DNA of 64,000 nt from Candidatus Bathyarchaeota archaeon. GTDB taxonomy: Archaea; Thermoproteota; Bathyarchaeia; Bathyarchaeales; Bathycorpusculaceae. Below are positions 30,564 through 37,413 of this stretch, piece by piece (the first letter of the stretch is position 1; each line of letters starts with the position of its first letter). The stretch covers positions 67,768 to 131,767 of the forward strand of contig CAVZKL010000018.1 of the NCBI GenBank assembly GCA_963775895.1. Reading direction: 5' to 3'. The notes beneath the pieces were generated by a model. The model searched no databases and was not told the origin of the DNA. It saw nothing but the letters and a program-made list of their open reading frames with translations. Made by a program: the position numbers and the translations under genes.

Positions 30564-30652
30564 CAGTTGTGCTTGTAGGTAAGGGGCGTTTGCTGCCCCG
30601 CGCGTTTCTGAGCTTTAGCAGCGTCTTGATGATTTTTCCCTCAACGTCAGCG

Positions 30653-30660
30653 TTTATATT
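30653..30660 (+). promoter_or_regulatory. Putative native TATA box of the tRNA locus
   Basis: TTTATATT 26-33 bp upstream of tRNA G1 in attL. Confidence 0.55.
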
Positions 30661-30773
30661 ATTAGAGCAGAGTAATCTCGTGTTAGGGCCCGTAGTCTAG
30701 TCTGGATTAAGACGCTGGTCTTTGGGCTTAGTAGATCATCATGTTGTGTTGTTATTTGTGTTAGTTTATCCAT
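30654..30773 (-). CDS. int(N): N-terminal fragment of split tyrosine integrase
   Basis: Hand translation MDKLTQITTQHDDLLSPKTSVLIQTRLRA...*; crosses attL in the same frame as int(C) crosses attR. Confidence 0.8.
   Translation of the reverse strand: MDKLTQITTQHDDLLSPKTSVLIQTRLRALTRDYSALII
30686..30718 (+). repeat. attL: intron-less 5' 33 nt of tRNA-Arg
   Basis: GGGCCCGTAGTCTAGTCTGGATTAAGACGCTGG = 36816-36832 + 36899-36914 exactly. Confidence 0.92.
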
Positions 30774-31113
30774 GGGTTGTTGGTCTATACGGGGTGTTTT
30801 GACTACAGGTTCTGACATTTTTCTTATCTCCATTCTATTGTTTCTACTTGTTTAAGTCGGCATTTTTGGCCTTAAACCTTCTGGTTAAACCGTTCTACAT
30901 TTCTACACTAGAACCATGTTCTGTATACTTGTTCTACTGTTCTACATATCTACAGAAGAGGCTAGAGGTTCTCAATTATTCTTAGCGTTCTGTCGTTTCT
31001 AGCGTTCTATCTATTTGTTCCTCTATCCGTTGCTTCCTGCTGTTGCTTCTGTTAGTCTGTTGTTTAACGCTCTGCGTCTTCATATCTCAATGACTTCACA
31101 ATTTCGTTCGTGG

Positions 31114-31270
31114 ATGGGCAAGGGAAACCCCAGCTTATTGTCCTTCGCCCCATCGCGTGAGATTTGCGTCGGTACTCTTTGCGAGTACCAAGACAGCGAT
31201 GGCTCTGGGGTTTCCTGTCTCCTTGGCTCTATGGAGACTTAAGGGATTATCGCATTTGCGTTCCGCCCAT
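31114..31270. other. Multi-stem structured non-coding region (candidate single-strand origin or ncRNA)
   Basis: Five perfect complementary pairs of 6-11 bp in a nested/branched arrangement. Confidence 0.55.
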
Positions 31271-31543
31271 TTGCACCTGCCCTTGATTGTTTGTTCGCTC
31301 ATTCTGAGGCATTCGTTATCTGCGTAACGTGTTTATCAGGAACGGCATTTTTTTTATTTTTTTGTTGTTGTTGGTAGTTTAATGTAGACTTATATAACGC
31401 GGGTGGAATTTTTAAATAAGTCTTATAACATGGTTTTCGTATGTTGATTTTAAGCATCTGGTTTAGGCTGGGTGCATGGCTATGGTAGTAGTCCTCTACT
31501 CGACGGGGGGCTTTGGGTTCTCCGTCGTGGAAGGTAATGTAAT

Positions 31544-31735
31544 ATGCGAATGTGCAGGTACCATGTAGATAAGCGTTGTTACCATTCGTCTTGCAGTTTG
31601 ATCGACGAGTTTGGTAATGTCTCCGCGTGCTCGTTGCACCCTAATCCTGAAGGGTTTTTCCGTCGTCGTAAGGTTGTGACTGTTCGGGTTTCTATTTTTT
31701 GTAGGGGTTTTCGGCGTGGTGAGGGTGGTTGTTGA
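31544..31735 (+). CDS. Small Cys/His-rich protein (element)
   Basis: CRYH...CYHSSC...CSLH; first gene of the rep operon. Confidence 0.5.
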   Translation: MRMCRYHVDKRCYHSSCSLIDEFGNVSACSLHPNPEGFFRRRKVVTVRVSIFCRGFRRGEGGC

Positions 31736-31944
31736 TGGTCAGTAGTGTTTTGGCTAAGCGTCGGCGTTTGCTCTACTGCCCTGTTGACGACGAACATTAT
31801 GTTGGTTTCGACTGCGGTACGTGTTTTGATTATGAATGCCCTGAGCGTGCGTTAGCTCGTGGTCTGAAGGTTCGTAGCGTCGTTAAGTCTCGTGAGCGCG
31901 GGCGTTTTGAGTTTAAGGTACGGGAGCGTGAGCTATTTGGTTGA
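31729..31944 (+). CDS. Small Zn-finger-like protein (element)
   Basis: YCP...CGTC...CP; GGTGG RBS; overlaps both neighbours. Confidence 0.55.
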   Translation: MLMVSSVLAKRRRLLYCPVDDEHYVGFDCGTCFDYECPERALARGLKVRSVVKSRERGRFEFKVRERELFG

Positions 31945-32922
31945 GGTAGTCGGGAACCTGTCTGATGGCTCTATGGATGAGCCTGACGTTGTTGATGGTT
32001 ACTGCGAACATAGAAATGGCTCTTTCGAGCATTTCAAGTTGGTAGGTCATGGTCGCGTGACTAACAGCAAGTGCGGTTCTTTTAAGACGTTCTGGGGTTG
32101 TAATCGTCGTGAGTTGCATGATCATGTTGGGCTTGATGGAGTGAATTATAAGGACAAGGGGTACTTTAAGCCCGTTTTTCTGAGTTGCGATAAGCCGTCA
32201 TGCCCTGTTTGCTATAAGTACGGTTGGGCTAGTCGTGAGGCTCATAAGATTGAGGTACGTTTGGCTGAGGGGGCGAGGCTGTATGGTCATGTCGAACATA
32301 TCGGGGTTACGATTCCGCCTGAGTTCTATAACTTAAGCTATGCAGATCTTCGTAAGAAGGTTCTGGATTTGTGTATGCGTCTTGGCATTATCGGTGGTTG
32401 CCTGATCTTTCACGGCTTTCGGTACAATGAGCGTAAGGAGTGGTATTGGTCTCCGCACTTTCACGTTCTGGGTTTTGTTCAGGGCGGTGTTGCGTGCCAT
32501 CATTGTAAGGTGAAGTGCTTTAAAGGCTGTGGCGGCTTTCGGGATAAGTGTTATCGGCTGTTTGAGCAGGATCGTTGTATTGTTGATTGTTACGGTGAGC
32601 GTAAGACTGTGGGGGGTACGGCTTGGTACCAACTCAATCATGCGGCTGTGTTGACTGATGTTAAGCGGTTCCATGTCGTTACGTGGTTTGGGTGCTGCAG
32701 TTATCGTCGGCTAAAGGTTCTGTTGAGGCCAAGAGATCGTTCTGCCCTATTTGTGCCCATGATTTGATTCGGATGAAATATCTAGGCGGTAACGATAATA
32801 TTCGTGGAGTTGAGGCTGGAGATCGGGATTGCGCGGCGGCTCGTCGCTGGAAGTGTATTTGCGATTTAGACGAGGATGGTTCTGAGGCTTGGGCTGTTGA
32901 TTTGAGTGATGGTTTTGGTTAA
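31892..32922 (+). CDS. HUH rolling-circle replication initiator (Rep); frameshift ~32718
   Basis: Zn motif SCDKPSCPVC, motif I EHIGVTIP, motif II SPHFHVLGF, motif III AWYQLNH; C-terminal CPICAHDL in the next frame. Confidence 0.85.
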
Positions 32923-32962
32923 CTTGCGTAGTGGTAACTAGGCTTTTTACGGGTGGTGATTA

Positions 32963-33109
32963 TTGGCTAGGATTCGTTTGTATGTTAAGCATCGTGATCA
33001 GGGCTGTCGAATTGAGTCTGTTCCATTAAAGCGTTTGATCAAGTTGTCAGCTTACCGTAAAACTCGTTGGAAGTTTGAAGATGGTTGGCTGGTTTTGGAG
33101 GCTTTTTAG
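32963..33109 (+). CDS. 48-aa basic protein (element)
   Basis: Hand translation MARIRLYVKHRDQG...GWLVLEAF*; GGTGGTG RBS. Confidence 0.5.
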   Translation: MARIRLYVKHRDQGCRIESVPLKRLIKLSAYRKTRWKFEDGWLVLEAF

Positions 33110-33158
33110 TCGCGCGCGTGAAGTGTGGTTCTCTGACTAGGTATTCTTATAAGCAGAA

Positions 33159-33548
33159 ATGTCGATAATGAAACTGGAAACTTGGTTGGCGATGCAAATG
33201 ACCAAAATTACGTTTCAACCTTGGGCAGAAATCATCGTTCATGAAACAATAAAACGAGACCTGAAGGATTTGGTCAAGCTGAAAACTTTGTACTTCAAAA
33301 CTGGACAAATTACGGAGGTTTTTCTTTGGGCAGAAGGAGTTGTTTTTGTGCGAACTCCAATGCCTCCTACCGACGATGTAGTCAGAGACCAACTGAAAGG
33401 AGTGATTCACTATTCATCAGTAGAATATGCTAAAATGCCAAAATATAGAAAAACCATAGTGTCTGGAGGCATAACAGTTCCAGTAGTAGATGTGAGCGAG
33501 ACTCGTGCGTTAAGAGATGTGGCGAGAGAGCTCAAGAAACAACTTTGA
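33159..33548 (+). CDS. Hypothetical protein (cargo)
   Basis: ITFQPWAEIIVHE...WAEGVVF...VPVVDVS; looks like a conserved archaeal family but not named with confidence. Confidence 0.65.
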   Translation: MSIMKLETWLAMQMTKITFQPWAEIIVHETIKRDLKDLVKLKTLYFKTGQITEVFLWAEGVVFVRTPMPPTDDVVRDQLKGVIHYSSVEYAKMPKYRKTIVSGGITVPVVDVSETRALRDVARELKKQL

Positions 33549-33553
33549 TATCG

Positions 33554-34354
33554 TCAAACAGGTACTTGGTTTGCGGTCCCGACTCTCGTCTCTAACAACC
33601 CAAATGCAATGTCTAATTTGTCTAATTCACTCTTGAGGATTTTGACACATAGAGTTTGAACGCTTCTTTTCTTTTGGTAACTCAACTGAGGAGAGAGTGG
33701 GTTATCTGGTAGGAATATTGCTCGCACATCATGTGATGTAATGTATTCTCGAAGGGGTCTATATGACGTAGGTTTGTACGAGATTTCATAATCGATTGCT
33801 CCATAGTGGATGGCACATCTACGGAAACGTTTTATTTCTCCATACCACTTGTTTCGTTTCATACGAACAAGATGCTGAGTTATCGGCTCATTCCGTCTTG
33901 CAGGGTCATTCGTCAATTCTCCAACAATATAATCAAAACCAATTCTTTCAGGTGTTCGGGGAGGAGCGAAGTATACGAGATTTATGATATGTGCGAAAAT
34001 ATCAAGTGCACTTGTTAGACTTTCAAAGAAGCCATCCAACTCCAAAGAGAGATTCATCGCCTGAATAGGCGGGACTGAGGTGGGGATAGTAGCGGCTGCG
34101 TTAGATGCGGAACCAGTTGTGACATAAGGTGGCACAGTCGGTGTCGTTGAGGGTGTGATATTCCATTTCTTTATTGCAAGCATACTCTCTAAATGTGTTT
34201 TGCTGTGATGTAGTTTCAATCTTACAGAAGTACAATAGCGAGGAATCGGTGATGCGTCTGTAGAGACCCTTTGGTTACATCCTAGATTATTGAAAGTTGC
34301 TGAGAAAAGGTCAATGTTAGCAAACTGATGATATGGGTTGAATATCGCAATCAC
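33554..34354 (-). CDS. HEPN-like (Cthe_2314-type) putative RNase (cargo)
   Basis: LDGFFESLTSALDIFAHIIN helix plus R-x4-H motif RRCAIH. Confidence 0.65.
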   Translation of the reverse strand: MIAIFNPYHQFANIDLFSATFNNLGCNQRVSTDASPIPRYCTSVRLKLHHSKTHLESMLAIKKWNITPSTTPTVPPYVTTGSASNAAATIPTSVPPIQAMNLSLELDGFFESLTSALDIFAHIINLVYFAPPRTPERIGFDYIVGELTNDPARRNEPITQHLVRMKRNKWYGEIKRFRRCAIHYGAIDYEISYKPTSYRPLREYITSHDVRAIFLPDNPLSPQLSYQKKRSVQTLCVKILKSELDKLDIAFGLLETRVGTANQVPV

Positions 34355-34609
34355 CGATATCCTAGCGAAATTCTATTGTCTTCTATTATCAATTCAATTC
34401 TTTAAGACTTCGCTACAAACGATATTATGATAACTAGACCTCTCTGCGCATGCGCTCAAGTTTTCGGGTTACTCCAAAACTCGGTGGAGTTTTGAGAATG
34501 GTTGACTGGTTCTTGAAGCGTTTTAGTAATGTTTTCTGTTTGTTTTGTTTTTTGAAGTGTTTTTTTAGCGCGCGCTATTCTTATAAGCAATACAGATGAA
34601 GATTGATGT

Positions 34610-35101
34610 ATGGCACGTTCTTCGCCTCACACTGAGGATTTGAAAAAAACGCTACTTGATTTCACGTCTTCAGAGCTGGCTTCACATTCCGCAAGTCTGA
34701 TAGGATTTGCTCTACTTTTTTTCACTTTCATAGAACTATTCTCGAGACAGGATTTCTTGCCAAGAGCCAGTTTTCCGACGGCTCTCCCGACATGGTCGGG
34801 GGACACAGGTCGCTATTTAGCATTTTTTGGTTTTTCCGTCCTGCTAAGTACAGGAACAATCTACTTGCTTCTGCGGCTAGTCTACTATGGCGTGCTTGCC
34901 CATGAAATAATAACCTTGAAAGGCTTCAGTTGTGCGTCCATAGACCAATTGCGAGAGAAGATATGGCAAGAAACCAGCAAAAAAACGTTCCAGAAATGGT
35001 TTGCGGGCGGAATATCACCTAAGTCAACAGGGTTTCTTCTCTGTGTAGTTCTTGGATTGATTTTCAGTGTAGCGATGATGCTTGTTTTGTTTCTTAAATA
35101 A
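34610..35101 (+). CDS. 3-TM membrane protein (cargo)
   Basis: Three hydrophobic helices; TTATAA 29 bp upstream of the ATG. Confidence 0.65.
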   Translation: MARSSPHTEDLKKTLLDFTSSELASHSASLIGFALLFFTFIELFSRQDFLPRASFPTALPTWSGDTGRYLAFFGFSVLLSTGTIYLLLRLVYYGVLAHEIITLKGFSCASIDQLREKIWQETSKKTFQKWFAGGISPKSTGFLLCVVLGLIFSVAMMLVLFLK

Positions 35102-35119
35102 TGCACGCGCGCTTCGACT

Positions 35120-35779
35120 TCAAGGCGTTACCTCAGTTAACCCGTTTACTGCATTGAGTGCAATTACACAAACACAATCTGAGTAGAGGCTCTTTTCACG
35201 AATATCCTTTATTGCTCTTCCAGTTTTTCCTTTTCGGGTAATCTCGACAATGCTTCCGTCATCGTTGACAATGATTCTAAGATGAGCAATACTATTCCTA
35301 AGGTCTCTGTCGCATGCGTCTGAGATAAACTTGAATCCGTGTATCTCAACAAATTGCATCTTTTCAAGTAGATTCAGATTGTTAAGCCCTTCGTAGTTCC
35401 TTACAAAATCCCGTGTTTCTGGGTCATAGATGTCGTGATGATTTTCCAAAAGGATAAATGCTATCACTTGAATTGTTTCAGAAAAGATGCCTTCTGCCAT
35501 CACTAAGTATGCGTATAATTCCAAAAGCGACTTTTGTTTTGGTGTTAGATTTGCTTTTGGTGAAGCGGGAAGTAGAACAACATTCGTCCAATAATCATGT
35601 TTTCGGTCTATCTCAGCAATTTTCTCAAAAACTATTTTCAAATTCTCGTTTGTGAGATTGCGTAGAAGAGGTGCAATTATCGAGTTGAGTTCTTCGACTT
35701 TCTTGAAATCTGCTCCAGATATCTCACATAACCTCTTTTGCGAGGCAAGGAAATCTGCGCTCTTAGTTGTATCTGTCAA
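35120..35779 (-). CDS. HEPN-like putative RNase (cargo)
   Basis: Mostly helical; YLVMAEG plus R-x4-H motif DLRNSIAH. Confidence 0.65.
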   Translation of the reverse strand: MTDTTKSADFLASQKRLCEISGADFKKVEELNSIIAPLLRNLTNENLKIVFEKIAEIDRKHDYWTNVVLLPASPKANLTPKQKSLLELYAYLVMAEGIFSETIQVIAFILLENHHDIYDPETRDFVRNYEGLNNLNLLEKMQFVEIHGFKFISDACDRDLRNSIAHLRIIVNDDGSIVEITRKGKTGRAIKDIREKSLYSDCVCVIALNAVNGLTEVTP

Positions 35780-35928
35780 TTTCCCTCACTTTCTTCATAA
35801 TGGTTTATTTCGGTTCGGCTATAACTTTTCTGCAAAGCTTGTTTTGGTTGGTTGGAGCACGAGCGTCATGCGAGTGCGACATAATGGCTATGCATGATAT
35901 TGAATAGAAAAAGGGGGGGGGGTTGTGT

Positions 35929-36832
35929 TTATTTGCGTTTTCGGTATAGTTTGATTCCGTCTATTTCTTGGATGTATGTGAATCCGTGTTCTAGTAGGTC
36001 GGTGGCTTCTTTGATGTTTGTTGCTGTTTTGACTGTGTATTCGTCGTCTTCGTTGAAGTTTACGAGTTGTGTGTAAAGCATCGTTGTTTCGATTTTCTTG
36101 TGGCCTAGTTTCTGCATGACTAGTAGGATGTCTTTGGTTCTGTCGTATGTCGTTGTTGCGTAGTGGTGTCTTAGGTTCCGTAGTGGTATCGCTTTGAGTT
36201 GTGGTTGGTTGAGTTTTTCTGCTAGTCGGTCGCGTGTGCTTCTCCATACTTCGCCCATGCGTATGCTTTTCGGGAATGGGTGTTCTCCTGTGTATTTGTG
36301 TAGGTAGGCTCTCAGCATTTCGGCGGTTTGCTGTTTCAGTTTGAGGCTTCTGGAATTGTGGCCTTTGCATCCCTGTACGTTTATGATTCCTTGCTCTGCG
36401 TCTATGTCTCGTCTGGTTGTGGTTTCCAGTTCTTTTCCTTCCAAGCCTGTTTCTTCTAGTATGGTGAAGATTGTTGCGTATTTTTTGCATGATGCGCTTA
36501 TGATTTTGTAGATGTTTTCTGTCGTTGGGATTAGTGGTATTTTCCGTTCCCATCTGTACGTTGGCTTCTTCCAGTTGATTTGGTTCGTTATGCAGTAGTA
36601 GTTGTAGTCGTTTGCTAGTTTTTGTTTGGTGGCGTTTGATACCGTGCTGTTTGCGATGTATGCTAGTATCTCTTGGGGGTTTTGTAGGTCTGCGTGTTTG
36701 CCTAGTTGGTTCAGTTTCTGTGAGGCTGTTGCGAGGGTGCTTTCTGACAGTCCTGAGCTCTTCATTTGTAGGAGAGTGTTTATTATTCGGTCTTCGTGCA
36801 GTATTCCGTGTGTGTGGGCCCGTAGTCTAGTC
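35929..36832 (-). CDS. int(C): catalytic part of tyrosine integrase
   Basis: GCKGH, LRNLRH, LGHKKIETTMLY; frame stays open through the tRNA intron to 36942. Confidence 0.92.
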
Positions 36833-36960
36833 AGGCTGTCTGGTTCTGCCTGTGTCTTGGGTAAATTACCCTGTGTCCTAGTTCCAGAAGCCCTAGATTG
36901 GATTAAGACGCTGGCCTGCGGAGCCGGAGACCTTGGGTTCAAATCCCAACGGGCCCGCCA
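36816..36960 (+). tRNA. tRNA-Arg(GCG) with 66-nt D-loop intron (36833-36898), CCA encoded; contains attR
   Basis: Acceptor GGGCCCG/CGGGCCC, D-stem GTCT/AGAC, anticodon stem CTGGC/GCCGG with GCG at 36918-36920, T-arm TTGGG-TTCAAAT-CCCAA; BHB motif at the junctions. Confidence 0.93.
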
Positions 36961-36984: not shown

Positions 36985-37413
36985 TTAAGCGTGGGTCTTG
37001 AGAAAATCAATAATGACAGGCTTGAGATCAAAGGCGACTTCAAGTTTTGGGATCTCTTCTAAAGAGAAATACGTCAAGGCAGTTCCTTCGCCAAGTTTAA
37101 GGTTTTCGATTCCTTCAGAAATGTTACCCCAATAGATGTGACGCTCAGTGGTTTCGCTTAACGAATTCTCAACGATGGTCTTGAAAAGATCGTAAGAACG
37201 AAGGTCGAATCCCGATTCTTCCTTCACTTCCCTGAGTATGGCCTGTTCGGGGCTTTCGCCCTCTTCAACTCTTCCACCAGGCAAGGTCCAGCAATTTGGA
37301 TAGAGGTAATCGTCCTCAGACCTAAGCTGCAGAAGAACCTTGGCTTCCTCATTTACCAGAATTATTCCCACGAACCTGTTGAGCTTCAACCAAAAATCCC
37401 TTTCTTCTCTCAA
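36985..37413 (-). CDS. NUDIX hydrolase
   Basis: Nudix box PGGRVEEGESPEQAILREVKEESG. Confidence 0.92.
   Translation of the reverse strand: MREERDFWLKLNRFVGIILVNEEAKVLLQLRSEDDYLYPNCWTLPGGRVEEGESPEQAILREVKEESGFDLRSYDLFKTIVENSLSETTERHIYWGNISEGIENLKLGEGTALTYFSLEEIPKLEVAFDLKPVIIDFLKTHA

What the first reader, a model, noticed from the sequence alone, without database searches (positions are those of the whole stretch)
30686..36960. A tRNA intron bisects the att site of an integrated element and is read in frame by its integrase
Seen: attL (30686-30718) is the spliced, intron-less 5' 33 nt of tRNA-Arg(GCG). The intact tRNA at attR has a 66-nt insertion after nt 17, essentially the centre of that repeat (17+16). 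On the minus strand the 66 nt are exactly 22 stop-free codons in the integrase frame: SVLIQ-[SRASGTRTQGNLPKTQAEPDSL]-TRLRA at attR versus SVLIQTRLRA at attL. Known: tyrosine recombinase core sites are about 30-34 bp with a central overlap, and archaeal tRNA introns have been proposed to protect against integration. Inference, three testable histories: (a) the intron was gained after integration, splitting the core and locking the element in; (b) an element with an intron-less attP bypassed an intron-containing target using only 17 bp; (c) the element's attP carried the intron inside its integrase gene and delivered it to an intron-less host tRNA, making integrative elements vectors of tRNA-intron spread. 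The open frame fits (c) but could arise by chance (rough estimate 1 in 8).
Basis: partly seen in the sequence, partly recalled or inferred. Interest (0 to 1): 0.9.

Follow-up and report, generated by a model that had tools for sequence, protein, structure and literature searches.

The report
Integrase-borne tRNA intron delivered on integration
A small mobile element in a Bathyarchaeia genome rebuilt the host's arginine tRNA gene with its own front half, which carries a spliceable intron that also forms part of the element's integrase gene, so such elements appear to seed tRNA introns.

Summary
A 6.1-kb element (30719-36815) lies between attL, the intron-less first 33 nt of tRNA-Arg(GCG), and attR, the complete tRNA with a 66-nt insert after nt 17. 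The insert is 22 stop-free codons in the integrase frame.

The insert is a bulge-helix-bulge intron. Its flanking helix shows compensatory changes.

The same arrangement recurs in relatives. Among 73 distinct tRNAs abutted by homologous integrases in Bathyarchaeia, 56 carry such an insert. Of 55 inserts, 54 are stop-free in the integrase frame, against 30 and 10 in the other frames, and 40 have lengths divisible by three.

- Same-genus sites without the element are intron-less.
- A 93%-identical integrase in a different host has a 65/66-identical intron, although the tRNA 3' exon there differs at 6/59 positions.
- Junctions between tandem elements carry the intron.

The intron lies beside the probable crossover segment rather than bisecting it.

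Sugahara et al. (2012) proposed this model from one locus. New here are the in-frame dual coding, the number of cases, and an integrase family unlike the known self-splitting ones. No free circular form and no RNA evidence were found.

The parts
30580..30684 (-). Relic of the N-terminus of an older integrase. It now forms the 5' flank and A/T-rich box of the original tRNA-Arg gene, and is shared with the same-genus genomes G005, G010 and G003.
   Evidence: The minus-strand translation shows an integrase-like N-terminal motif. G005 keeps a longer degraded integrase at the same place.
30686..30718 (+). attL: the displaced, intron-less first 33 nt of tRNA-Arg(GCG), still joined to the original upstream flank.
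   Evidence: The flank is homologous to the tRNA-Arg upstream flank at the element-free sites of G005, G003 and G010.
30654..30833 (-). Int(N) reading frame. An ATG at 30833 is followed by 39 codons of element sequence, then attL is read as SVLIQTRLRA, and the frame ends in host flank.
   Evidence: When the element ends are joined in silico, the frame is continuous with int(C). A conserved (K/E)LL motif precedes the att site in relatives.
30719..36815 (.). Integrated element of 6,097 bp. The cargo ORFs have no family assignment, and only the integrase end is conserved among related elements.
35929..36815 (-). Int(C): the tyrosine recombinase core. It is XerA-like and has Glu at the position of the first catalytic Arg.
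   Evidence: Pfam PF00589, E = 6.6e-12. The closest solved structures are XerA 4a8e and 5hxy. Arg-I position.
36779..36787 (+). TATA-like box (TTTATTATT) about 29-37 nt upstream of the rebuilt tRNA. It is the antisense of the conserved integrase motif IINT and is the probable element-borne promoter for the tRNA (inferred).
   Evidence: The TTTATWAT consensus sits at about the same distance upstream in most of the 56 attR flanks.
36816..36832 (+). tRNA-Arg(GCG) 5' exon, 17 nt, supplied by the element.
36833..36898 (+). 66-nt bulge-helix-bulge intron at position 17/18. Central helix: 36827-36830 with 36893-36896. Bulges: 36831-36833 and 36897-36899. Flanking helix: 36834-36837 with 36889-36892 and 36839-36843 with 36884-36888. 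On the minus strand it is 22 codons of the integrase frame.
36899..36960 (+). tRNA 3' exon plus CCA. Its first 16 nt (36899-36914, matching attL 30703-30718) are the probable crossover segment; the rest is host-derived.

Best explanation
The window holds a small integrated element of a Bathyarchaeia-specific family. Its tyrosine integrase gene contains the attachment site, a self-splitting or 'suicidal' layout. In the free element the integrase frame would run through a short N-terminal part, then the antisense of tRNA nt 18-33, then the antisense of a 66-nt intron, then the antisense of tRNA nt 1-17, and on into the catalytic part. Recombination with the intron-less host tRNA-Arg(GCG) takes place in the roughly 16 bp between the intron and the anticodon loop. 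As a result, the host promoter and first 33 nt are left behind as a dead fragment (attL) fused to int(N). The gene is rebuilt at attR from the element's 5' exon, its intron and its upstream TATA-like box, joined to the host's 3' two-thirds. The host splicing endonuclease must then remove the intron through its relaxed bulge-helix-bulge motif. Shown here: the anatomy, the RNA motif with covariation, the linkage of the intron to the integrase, and the coding constraint. Inferred: the crossover position, splicing, promoter use, and the existence of a free circular form.
For: Intron-less state before integration:
- 3 of 3 same-genus element-free sites with a homologous upstream flank (G005, G003, G010) have an intron-less tRNA-Arg(GCG). 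G005 and G003 are also syntenic downstream.

Association with the integrase, sampling by tRNA:
- Arg(GCG): 3 of 29 genes have a D-loop insert, and 2 of those 3 abut an intact integrase.
- Pro(GGG): 10 of 28 genes have an insert. Seven of them abut an integrase, two abut a relic and one has neither. None of the 18 insert-less genes has an integrase abutting its 5' end in antisense.

Association, sampling by integrase:
- 56 of 73 distinct abutted tRNAs have an insert.

Direction of transfer:
- 20 loci have an insert at attR but not attL, and none show the reverse.

Intron linked to the element:
- Window against L231: intron 65/66 identical, integrase gene 92.7%, tRNA 3' exon 53/59, downstream flank not alignable.
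- The junction between tandem elements in G034 carries the intron.
- In the window's own genome, the tandem junction at C23:21039 plus its integrase is 87-88% identical to the attR plus integrase of L250, L258 and L259, and the homology ends at the end of the att block.
- L160 and L306 share 34/36 intron positions, although the host T-stems differ.
- Arg and Pro introns are significantly similar: top local score 19, against a maximum of 17 in 200 shuffles.
- Insert presence changes 5 times on the integrase tree, while the tRNA target changes 7 times.

Coding constraint:
- 54 of 55 inserts are stop-free in the integrase frame.
- 40 of 55 lengths are multiples of three, as are 14 of 16 similarity clusters.
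- 18 of 25 in-silico rejoined att sites give a continuous frame with an ATG. In five of them (L169, L067, L291, L257, L304) this holds only with the attR intron.

Real intron:
- 47 of 56 inserts have a central helix of at least 3/4 pairs and a flanking helix of at least 3 bp.
- Three pairs of the flanking helix show compensatory changes, and 98% of cells are paired.
- The genome holds two EndA paralogs.
- No second tRNA-Arg(GCG) was found in the 89%-complete genome.
Against: - No free circular form or attP on a non-chromosomal contig was found. Viral-contig relatives belong to another type, and all 12 database proteins matched come from integrated copies.
- No RNA data were available, so splicing and promoter use are not shown.
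- 4 of 25 rejoined frames are broken with the attR intron (L156, L158, L258, L265), and 3 more are ambiguous (L160, L249, L297). L158 and L265 are in frame only with the attL version, which on its face fits a crossover 5' of the intron. Decay after integration is the assumed explanation.
- 15 of 55 insert lengths are not multiples of three.
- The integrase has Glu where tyrosine recombinases have their first catalytic Arg, so its activity is not self-evident.
- The loci are related to one another, so the counts overstate independent support.
Confidence: 0.8

Rival explanations
1. History (b): the host tRNA already carried the intron. An element with an intron-less attP recombined within nt 1-17, so the intron at attR is host DNA and the intron-less 16 nt at attL is element DNA.
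For: Rejoined frames of L158 and L265 are intact only with the attL version, and L156 likewise. Some tRNAs keep a D-loop intron with no integrase nearby (L028, L328), so host-resident introns do exist.
Against: Element-free same-genus sites are intron-less. The intron is 65/66 identical between hosts whose tRNA 3' exons differ at 6/59 positions and whose downstream flanks do not align. The same intron stays with the same integrase type both at a tandem junction and at an attR. Neither the 3n lengths nor the stop-free frame would be expected. In L169, L067, L291 and L257 an intron-less attP would break the frame.
Confidence: 0.07
2. History (a): the intron entered the rebuilt tRNA after integration, by intron transposition or another route, and persists because it hinders excision. 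This would produce the association by survivorship.
For: It also predicts an insert at attR but not attL, as seen in 20 loci with none reversed, and an association with resident integrases.
Against: Junctions between tandem elements carry the intron. Loci with the intron at both ends exist (L155). Near-identical introns accompany near-identical integrases in different hosts. The coding constraint argues against it. Intron class follows integrase clades across switches of target tRNA.
Confidence: 0.05
3. The insert is not a spliced intron. It is only integrase coding sequence, and the tRNA copy at attR is a dead gene.
For: There is no RNA evidence. Standard tRNA finders do not call the gene correctly. 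The outer exon helix of the motif is weak, at 1 bp.
Against: The central 4-bp helix is invariant, and the flanking helix shows compensatory changes that a coding-only constraint would not produce. No other tRNA-Arg(GCG) was found in the genome. In G005 the Pro intron is kept intact after the integrase was lost (L336). Two EndA paralogs are present.
Confidence: 0.05

Closest known systems
Sugahara et al. 2012 model of tRNA intron gain in Caldiarchaeum subterraneum (PMC3293823; abstract, Results part 1 and Discussion part 1 read). It is restated in the review 'Archaeal tyrosine recombinases' (PMC8371274; passages read).
   Same: An intron-free attB recombines with an intron-containing attP. The 5' tRNA fragment is left upstream, and the rebuilt tRNA gains the intron from the element.
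   Different: That model rests on one locus, with the intron at 24/25. The recombinase ORF does not overlap the tRNA (argued to be pNOB8-like), and there is no coding role for the intron. Here there are dozens of loci, the intron lies inside the integrase frame under both coding and RNA-structure constraint, the position is mostly 17/18, and tandem junctions show an attP-like state directly.
SSV-type 'suicidal' integrases (SSV1, pTN3, pT26-2), as described in PMC8371274 (passages) and PMC7253208 (search listing only).
   Same: attP lies inside the integrase ORF, integration splits the gene into int(N) and int(C), and the target is a tRNA gene.
   Different: The known ones carry Pfam PF16795 and are described as a single monophyletic origin. 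Here 0 of 12 members match PF16795 even at E <= 1, while 12 of 12 match PF00589, and the nearest solved relatives are XerA. As I recall it, SSV1's identity block covers the 3' part of the tRNA, from the anticodon loop to the 3' end. Here the identity block is the tRNA 5' half, so the promoter is replaced as well.
Randau and Soll 2008: introns protect tRNA genes from integration (seen only as cited in PMC4090602 and PMC3293823).
   Same: It concerns the interplay between tRNA introns and att sites.
   Different: Here the intron arrives with the element rather than defending against it, and related elements still integrate into intron-bearing tRNAs (tandem arrays).
Intron transposition among tRNA genes of Thermoproteales. 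The original report is recalled; it is used as a positive control in preprint 10.64898/2026.10.13.758758 (passages read).
   Same: Similar introns occur in different tRNA species (Arg and Pro).
   Different: Here the shared introns sit beside related integrases. The Asgard preprint found no mobile-element enrichment near its gain calls (0 of 71 calls, section 11 read).

Membership tests
Tyrosine recombinase superfamily | Catalytic domain detectable by profile (Pfam PF00589) | tested here: met
   E = 6.6e-12 at residues 142-293 of the 337-aa ORF. 12 of 12 aligned homologues match.
Tyrosine recombinase superfamily | Full catalytic set: Arg-I, Lys, His, Arg-II, His/Trp, Tyr | tested here: not met
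   In the alignment to XerA 4a8e, the LRH box and the HKK..TT..Y box are present, but Arg-I (GLR in XerA) aligns with GLE. None of the 61 integrases in the tree set in which the motif was found has Arg there (E in 47, M in 12, G in 1, I in 1). Arg occurs in 12 homologues outside that set.
SSV-type (suicidal) integrases | attP inside the integrase ORF, so that integration splits the gene | tested here: met
   An int(N) frame with an ATG reads into attL. 18 of 25 rejoined ends give one continuous frame. The att region shows a coding constraint. This is an inference from integrated copies; no episome was seen.
SSV-type (suicidal) integrases | Phage_integr_3 domain (PF16795), given as their signature in PMC8371274 | tested here: not met
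   0 of 12 members match at E <= 1.
Archaeal XerA (NCBIfam NF040815) | Score above the curated cut-off | tested here: not met
   89.4 bits against a cut-off of 220.
Archaeal bulge-helix-bulge tRNA intron | Two 3-nt bulges on opposite strands separated by a 4-bp helix, with the splice sites in the bulges | tested here: met
   Window: CUAG/CUAG, 4 of 4 pairs, with a 3-nt bulge (two exon nt plus one intron nt, and the reverse) at each splice site. The bulge model was checked by hand on the canonical 37/38 intron of L284 (sequence).
Archaeal bulge-helix-bulge tRNA intron | Flanking helices (strict hBHBh') | tested here: inconclusive
   The inner helix h' has 4+5 bp, with 3 compensatory pairs. The outer exon helix h has only 1 bp. 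This is therefore the relaxed HBh' form.
Archaeal bulge-helix-bulge tRNA intron | Removed by the splicing endonuclease in vivo | not testable with these tools
   Two EndA paralogs are present. No RNA holder was listed.
pNOB8-type integrases | Integrase gene stays intact, with the att site outside the ORF | tested here: inconclusive
   Int(C) alone is 292 aa and XerA-sized, and gene callers also start it at an internal Met (P0010, P0012). However, the att region is under a coding constraint.

The most novel reading that the evidence does not exclude
This integrase family is a main generator of D-loop tRNA introns in Bathyarchaeia. Each intron is a dual-coded module: a bulge-helix-bulge intron on the sense strand and a translated integrase segment on the antisense strand. 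Integration installs it in Arg, Pro and Gly tRNA genes, and it stays behind as an orphan intron once the element decays, as in G005:C1, where the intron is kept and the integrase is lost. The family would also be a second, independent origin of self-splitting integrases, working without the canonical first catalytic arginine.
Probability: 0.5. Interest if true: 0.88.

Novelty: new variant of a known kind. Interest (0 to 1): 0.8.

Why it matters
Where non-canonical archaeal tRNA introns come from is an old open question. The only mobile-element model rested on one locus, and a 2026 census in Asgard archaea found no mobile-element link (section 11 of the preprint read).

This family offers dozens of natural before-and-after pairs (attL against attR), tandem junctions and orphan introns, so the delivery route can be tested directly.

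It also shows one stretch of DNA constrained in two ways at once, as an RNA splicing motif and as a protein-coding segment on the opposite strand.

Finally, it adds a XerA-like, PF16795-negative lineage to the self-splitting integrases, which have been described as having a single origin.

Tried and rejected
- Sequencing runs: no RNA holder was listed. Nine DNA runs, all kept as contigs, each held a share of 0.16 or less.
- Laying four runs: this gave patchy cover by related organisms and a few joints with 22-nt sides (30707 to 36899 and 30707 to 36934). These are most simply intron-less tRNA-Arg genes of other organisms. No verdict on circle junctions or empty sites.
- The search for homologous proteins with the 59-aa int(N) ORF, longer lengths: no hit.
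- The same tool with residues 1-120 of the 337-aa ORF: 12 proteins, all from integrated copies.
- Viral contigs with the integrase alignment: only 31-36% identical integrases of another architecture, with an N-terminal zinc-finger extension and no tRNA-like att.
- Viral contigs with the 291-aa cargo ORF: nothing.
- PHROGs, PADLOC and NCBIfam on the cargo ORFs: nothing usable.
- The MFE fold of the precursor did not show the motif and was not used.

Errors of mine:
- One search used a bulge-helix-bulge register that was off by one. It was corrected.
- One search placed L169 at 43 nt. The attL/attR difference gives 44 nt, and that value was used from then on.
- In one search the L235 rows are invalid, because the wrong start was found.
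- In one search the L297 junction was set too far 3' and is not counted.
- In one search I registered the acceptor stem one column off, so helix 1 there is meaningless. The other helices are unaffected.
- One search was sent by mistake with a whole locus as query and n=2. It was repeated correctly.
- In one search only the first 10 of 300 shuffles were printed (14-17 changes).

Considered and dropped: the conserved mid-intron motif as an integrase binding site. It was not tested further.

Supplementary files of the papers were not opened; those of PMC3293823 (Figures S1-S2, Table S1) might bear on the comparison.


Full report
**What is in the sequence**

The finding's description holds.
- The sequence at 30686-30718 equals the first 33 nt of the spliced tRNA-Arg(GCG).
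- The full gene lies at 36816-36960. A 66-nt insert (36833-36898) follows nt 17.
- On the minus strand, a 337-codon open frame (35929-36942) carries a tyrosine recombinase domain (PF00589, E = 6.6e-12). It reads the insert as 22 codons between SVLIQ and TRLRA.
- A second minus-strand frame (30654-30833) starts at an ATG inside the element and reads attL as SVLIQTRLRA.
- Record titles of related contigs name the host lineage as Bathyarchaeia.

**The insert looks like a true archaeal intron**

I took the bulge-helix-bulge geometry as follows: two exon nt plus one intron nt form the 5' bulge, and the mirror arrangement forms the 3' bulge. I checked this by hand on the canonical 37/38 intron of L284 (sequence).
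- With this geometry the window has a 4/4 central helix (CUAG at 36827-36830 with CUAG at 36893-36896), two 3-nt bulges, and an inner helix of 4+5 bp.
- In an alignment with six related precursors, the central helix is invariant. The inner helix is paired in 98% of cells, with three pairs changed on both sides.
- The outer exon helix has only 1 bp, so this is the relaxed form.
- The genome encodes two EndA paralogs. From recalled knowledge, that is the subunit make-up associated with broad substrate range.
- No second tRNA-Arg(GCG) was found in this 89%-complete assembly.

**Sites without the element**

Three same-genus genomes (G005, G003, G010) have an intron-less tRNA-Arg(GCG) behind the same roughly 70-nt upstream flank that now precedes attL. 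In G005 and G003 the downstream Fe-S protein gene is also shared. The window has about 690 nt extra there, including a NUDIX gene.

**The pattern recurs across relatives**

I pooled homologous integrases from reference genomes and metagenomes: 124 loci including the window.
- 90 loci have a tRNA 5' end next to the integrase N-terminus on the opposite strand.
- 81 of those tRNAs are complete, giving 73 distinct sequences.
- 56 of the 73 carry an insert in the D region and 17 do not.
- 47 of the 56 have a central helix of at least 3/4 pairs and an inner helix of at least 3 bp. Most are spliced at 17/18.

I then sampled by tRNA rather than by integrase.
- Arg(GCG): 3 of 29 genes have an insert. 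Two of the three abut an intact integrase.
- Pro(GGG): 10 of 28 genes have an insert. Seven abut an integrase, two abut a relic, and one has neither.
- None of the 18 insert-less Pro genes has an integrase abutting its 5' end in antisense.

**The element carries the intron**

- Twenty loci have the insert at attR but not attL. None show the reverse. Five have it at both ends or at a tandem junction, and two lack it at both.
- The window and L231 share 65/66 intron positions and 92.7% of the integrase gene. Their tRNA 3' exons differ at 6/59 positions, and the downstream flanks do not align.
- In the window's own genome, contig C23 holds a tandem array. The junction between the two elements carries an intron. 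That junction plus its integrase is 87-88% identical to the attR plus integrase of L250, L258 and L259. The homology stops at the end of the att block.
- In G034 the tandem junction likewise carries the intron.
- L160 and L306 share 34/36 intron positions, although the host T-stems differ.
- Intron cores from Arg and Pro tRNAs are more alike than shuffles allow: top score 19, against a maximum of 17 in 200 shuffles.
- On a FastTree of 71 integrases, insert presence changes 5 times. The first 10 of 300 label shuffles gave 14-17 changes. The target tRNA changes 7 times. One 13-member clade is insert-less across Arg, Pro and Gly targets. The sequences are related, so these counts are not independent.

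**The intron is under a coding constraint**

- 54 of 55 inserts are stop-free in the frame continuous with int(C), against 30 and 10 in the other two frames. One of those frames necessarily meets the TAG of the CTAG motif.
- 40 of 55 lengths are multiples of three. So are 14 of 16 similarity clusters and 20 of 29 cluster-length classes (binomial P about 1e-4 against one third).
- Within the window's own group the lengths are 66, 66, 66, 66 and 63 nt, with 54 nt in two more distant members.
- Database proteins show in-frame inserts of 14 to 22 residues.
- Joining the element ends in silico gives a continuous frame with an ATG in 18 of 25 loci. In five of them (L169, L067, L291, L257, L304) this holds only when the attR intron is included.

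**Where the crossover lies (inferred)**

attL and attR can differ at nt 5 (L249), at nt 16 (L232), and just 3' of the intron (L160, L306). From there to the anticodon stem they are always identical, and that segment varies between hosts. The strand-exchange region therefore probably lies in the 13-16 bp to the 3' side of the intron (window 36899-36914). This fits the homology breakpoints found. On this reading the intron sits beside the core rather than through it.

**Evidence against this reading**

- No episomal copy was found, and there is no RNA evidence.
- Four rejoined frames are broken with the attR intron (L156, L158, L258, L265), and three are ambiguous (L160, L249, L297).
- L158 and L265 are in frame only with the attL version. 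I attribute this to decay after integration; for example, L156 has 59 nt where its relatives have 60, 60, 60 and 57. That is an assumption.
- The integrase has Glu at the first catalytic Arg position.

**Comparison with what is known**

- The delivery model was proposed by Sugahara et al. in 2012 from one Caldiarchaeum locus, where the recombinase does not overlap the tRNA (PMC3293823). A 2021 review repeats it (PMC8371274).
- Searches of the held library for intron-containing attP in archaea returned only these two papers. A survey of Bathyarchaeia viruses does not mention introns.
- Known self-splitting integrases carry PF16795 and are described as having one origin (PMC8371274, passages). 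This family matches only PF00589 and is closest to XerA.
- I therefore rate the finding a new variant of a known kind.

Noticed in passing
window 36400-36480 (the motif ETGLEGKEL on the minus strand), and loci L153-L310: The first catalytic arginine of tyrosine recombinases (GLR in XerA 4a8e) is Glu in the window's integrase. Among the 61 integrases in the tree set in which the motif was found, it is E in 47, M in 12, G in 1 and I in 1, and never Arg. Twelve homologues outside that set keep Arg. Whether another residue takes over, for instance from the Arg-rich peptide encoded by the tRNA 5' exon antisense, was not tested.
   Followed up: partly
window 36779-36787 and 56 attR flanks: A TTTATWAT box sits about 27-36 nt upstream of nearly all rebuilt tRNAs. 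It is the antisense of the conserved integrase motif IINT, so the element seems to carry the promoter for the tRNA inside its own coding sequence.
   Followed up: partly
window 30580-30684; L017 (G005), L015 (G010), L021 (G003): The 'native' upstream flank of tRNA-Arg(GCG) in this genus is itself the relic of an older integrase N-terminus. G005 keeps about 120 degraded codons. This locus has therefore been hit repeatedly, and the tRNA's A/T-rich box derives from an earlier element.
   Followed up: partly
G000:C23:15600-22000 (own genome, outside the window): A second case occurs in the same genome. tRNA-Pro(GGG) has a 54-nt intron at 17/18 and abuts an integrase (C23:15890-16762). It is followed by a tandem junction with another intron (C23:21039) and a second integrase with one TAG (C23:21092-21919).
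   Followed up: yes
L336 (G005:C1:47824-47889 region): Orphan intron: the same 54-nt Pro intron as in G000:C23 and G009, with about 60 nt of element flank, but the integrase is gone after about 25 codons. L331 (G008:C8) keeps about 55 codons.
   Followed up: partly
window 33554-34354 (-) and 35120-35779 (-): Two cargo ORFs have weak HEPN-like signals: PF18730 at E = 0.0048, and Cas13a HEPN-region models at E = 0.006-0.009. Both are below any threshold, and the function is unknown.
   Followed up: no
window 36985-37413 (-): A NUDIX hydrolase gene lies between the tRNA and the Fe-S protein gene. In G005 and G003 the Fe-S gene follows the tRNA directly, so about 690 nt are extra here.
   Followed up: no
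L251, L252, L256; L284, L301; L264, L269; L288; L281: Some abutted tRNAs carry further introns: a second insert in the variable/T region, a canonical 37/38 intron, or an intron after the anticodon. L281 has a tandem duplication of the flank plus the 5' tRNA part.
   Followed up: no
window 36942 (TTG) and T-loops in general: The antisense of the conserved T-loop contains TTG in frame with the integrase when the insert length is a multiple of three. An integrated int(C) could therefore in principle start inside the tRNA antisense, and gene callers do start there (P0005, P0006, P0009). Whether this start is used is untested.
   Followed up: no
L291: The rebuilt tRNA-Gly(TCC) has C at the nearly universal U33 position, while the attL fragment keeps T.
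   Followed up: no
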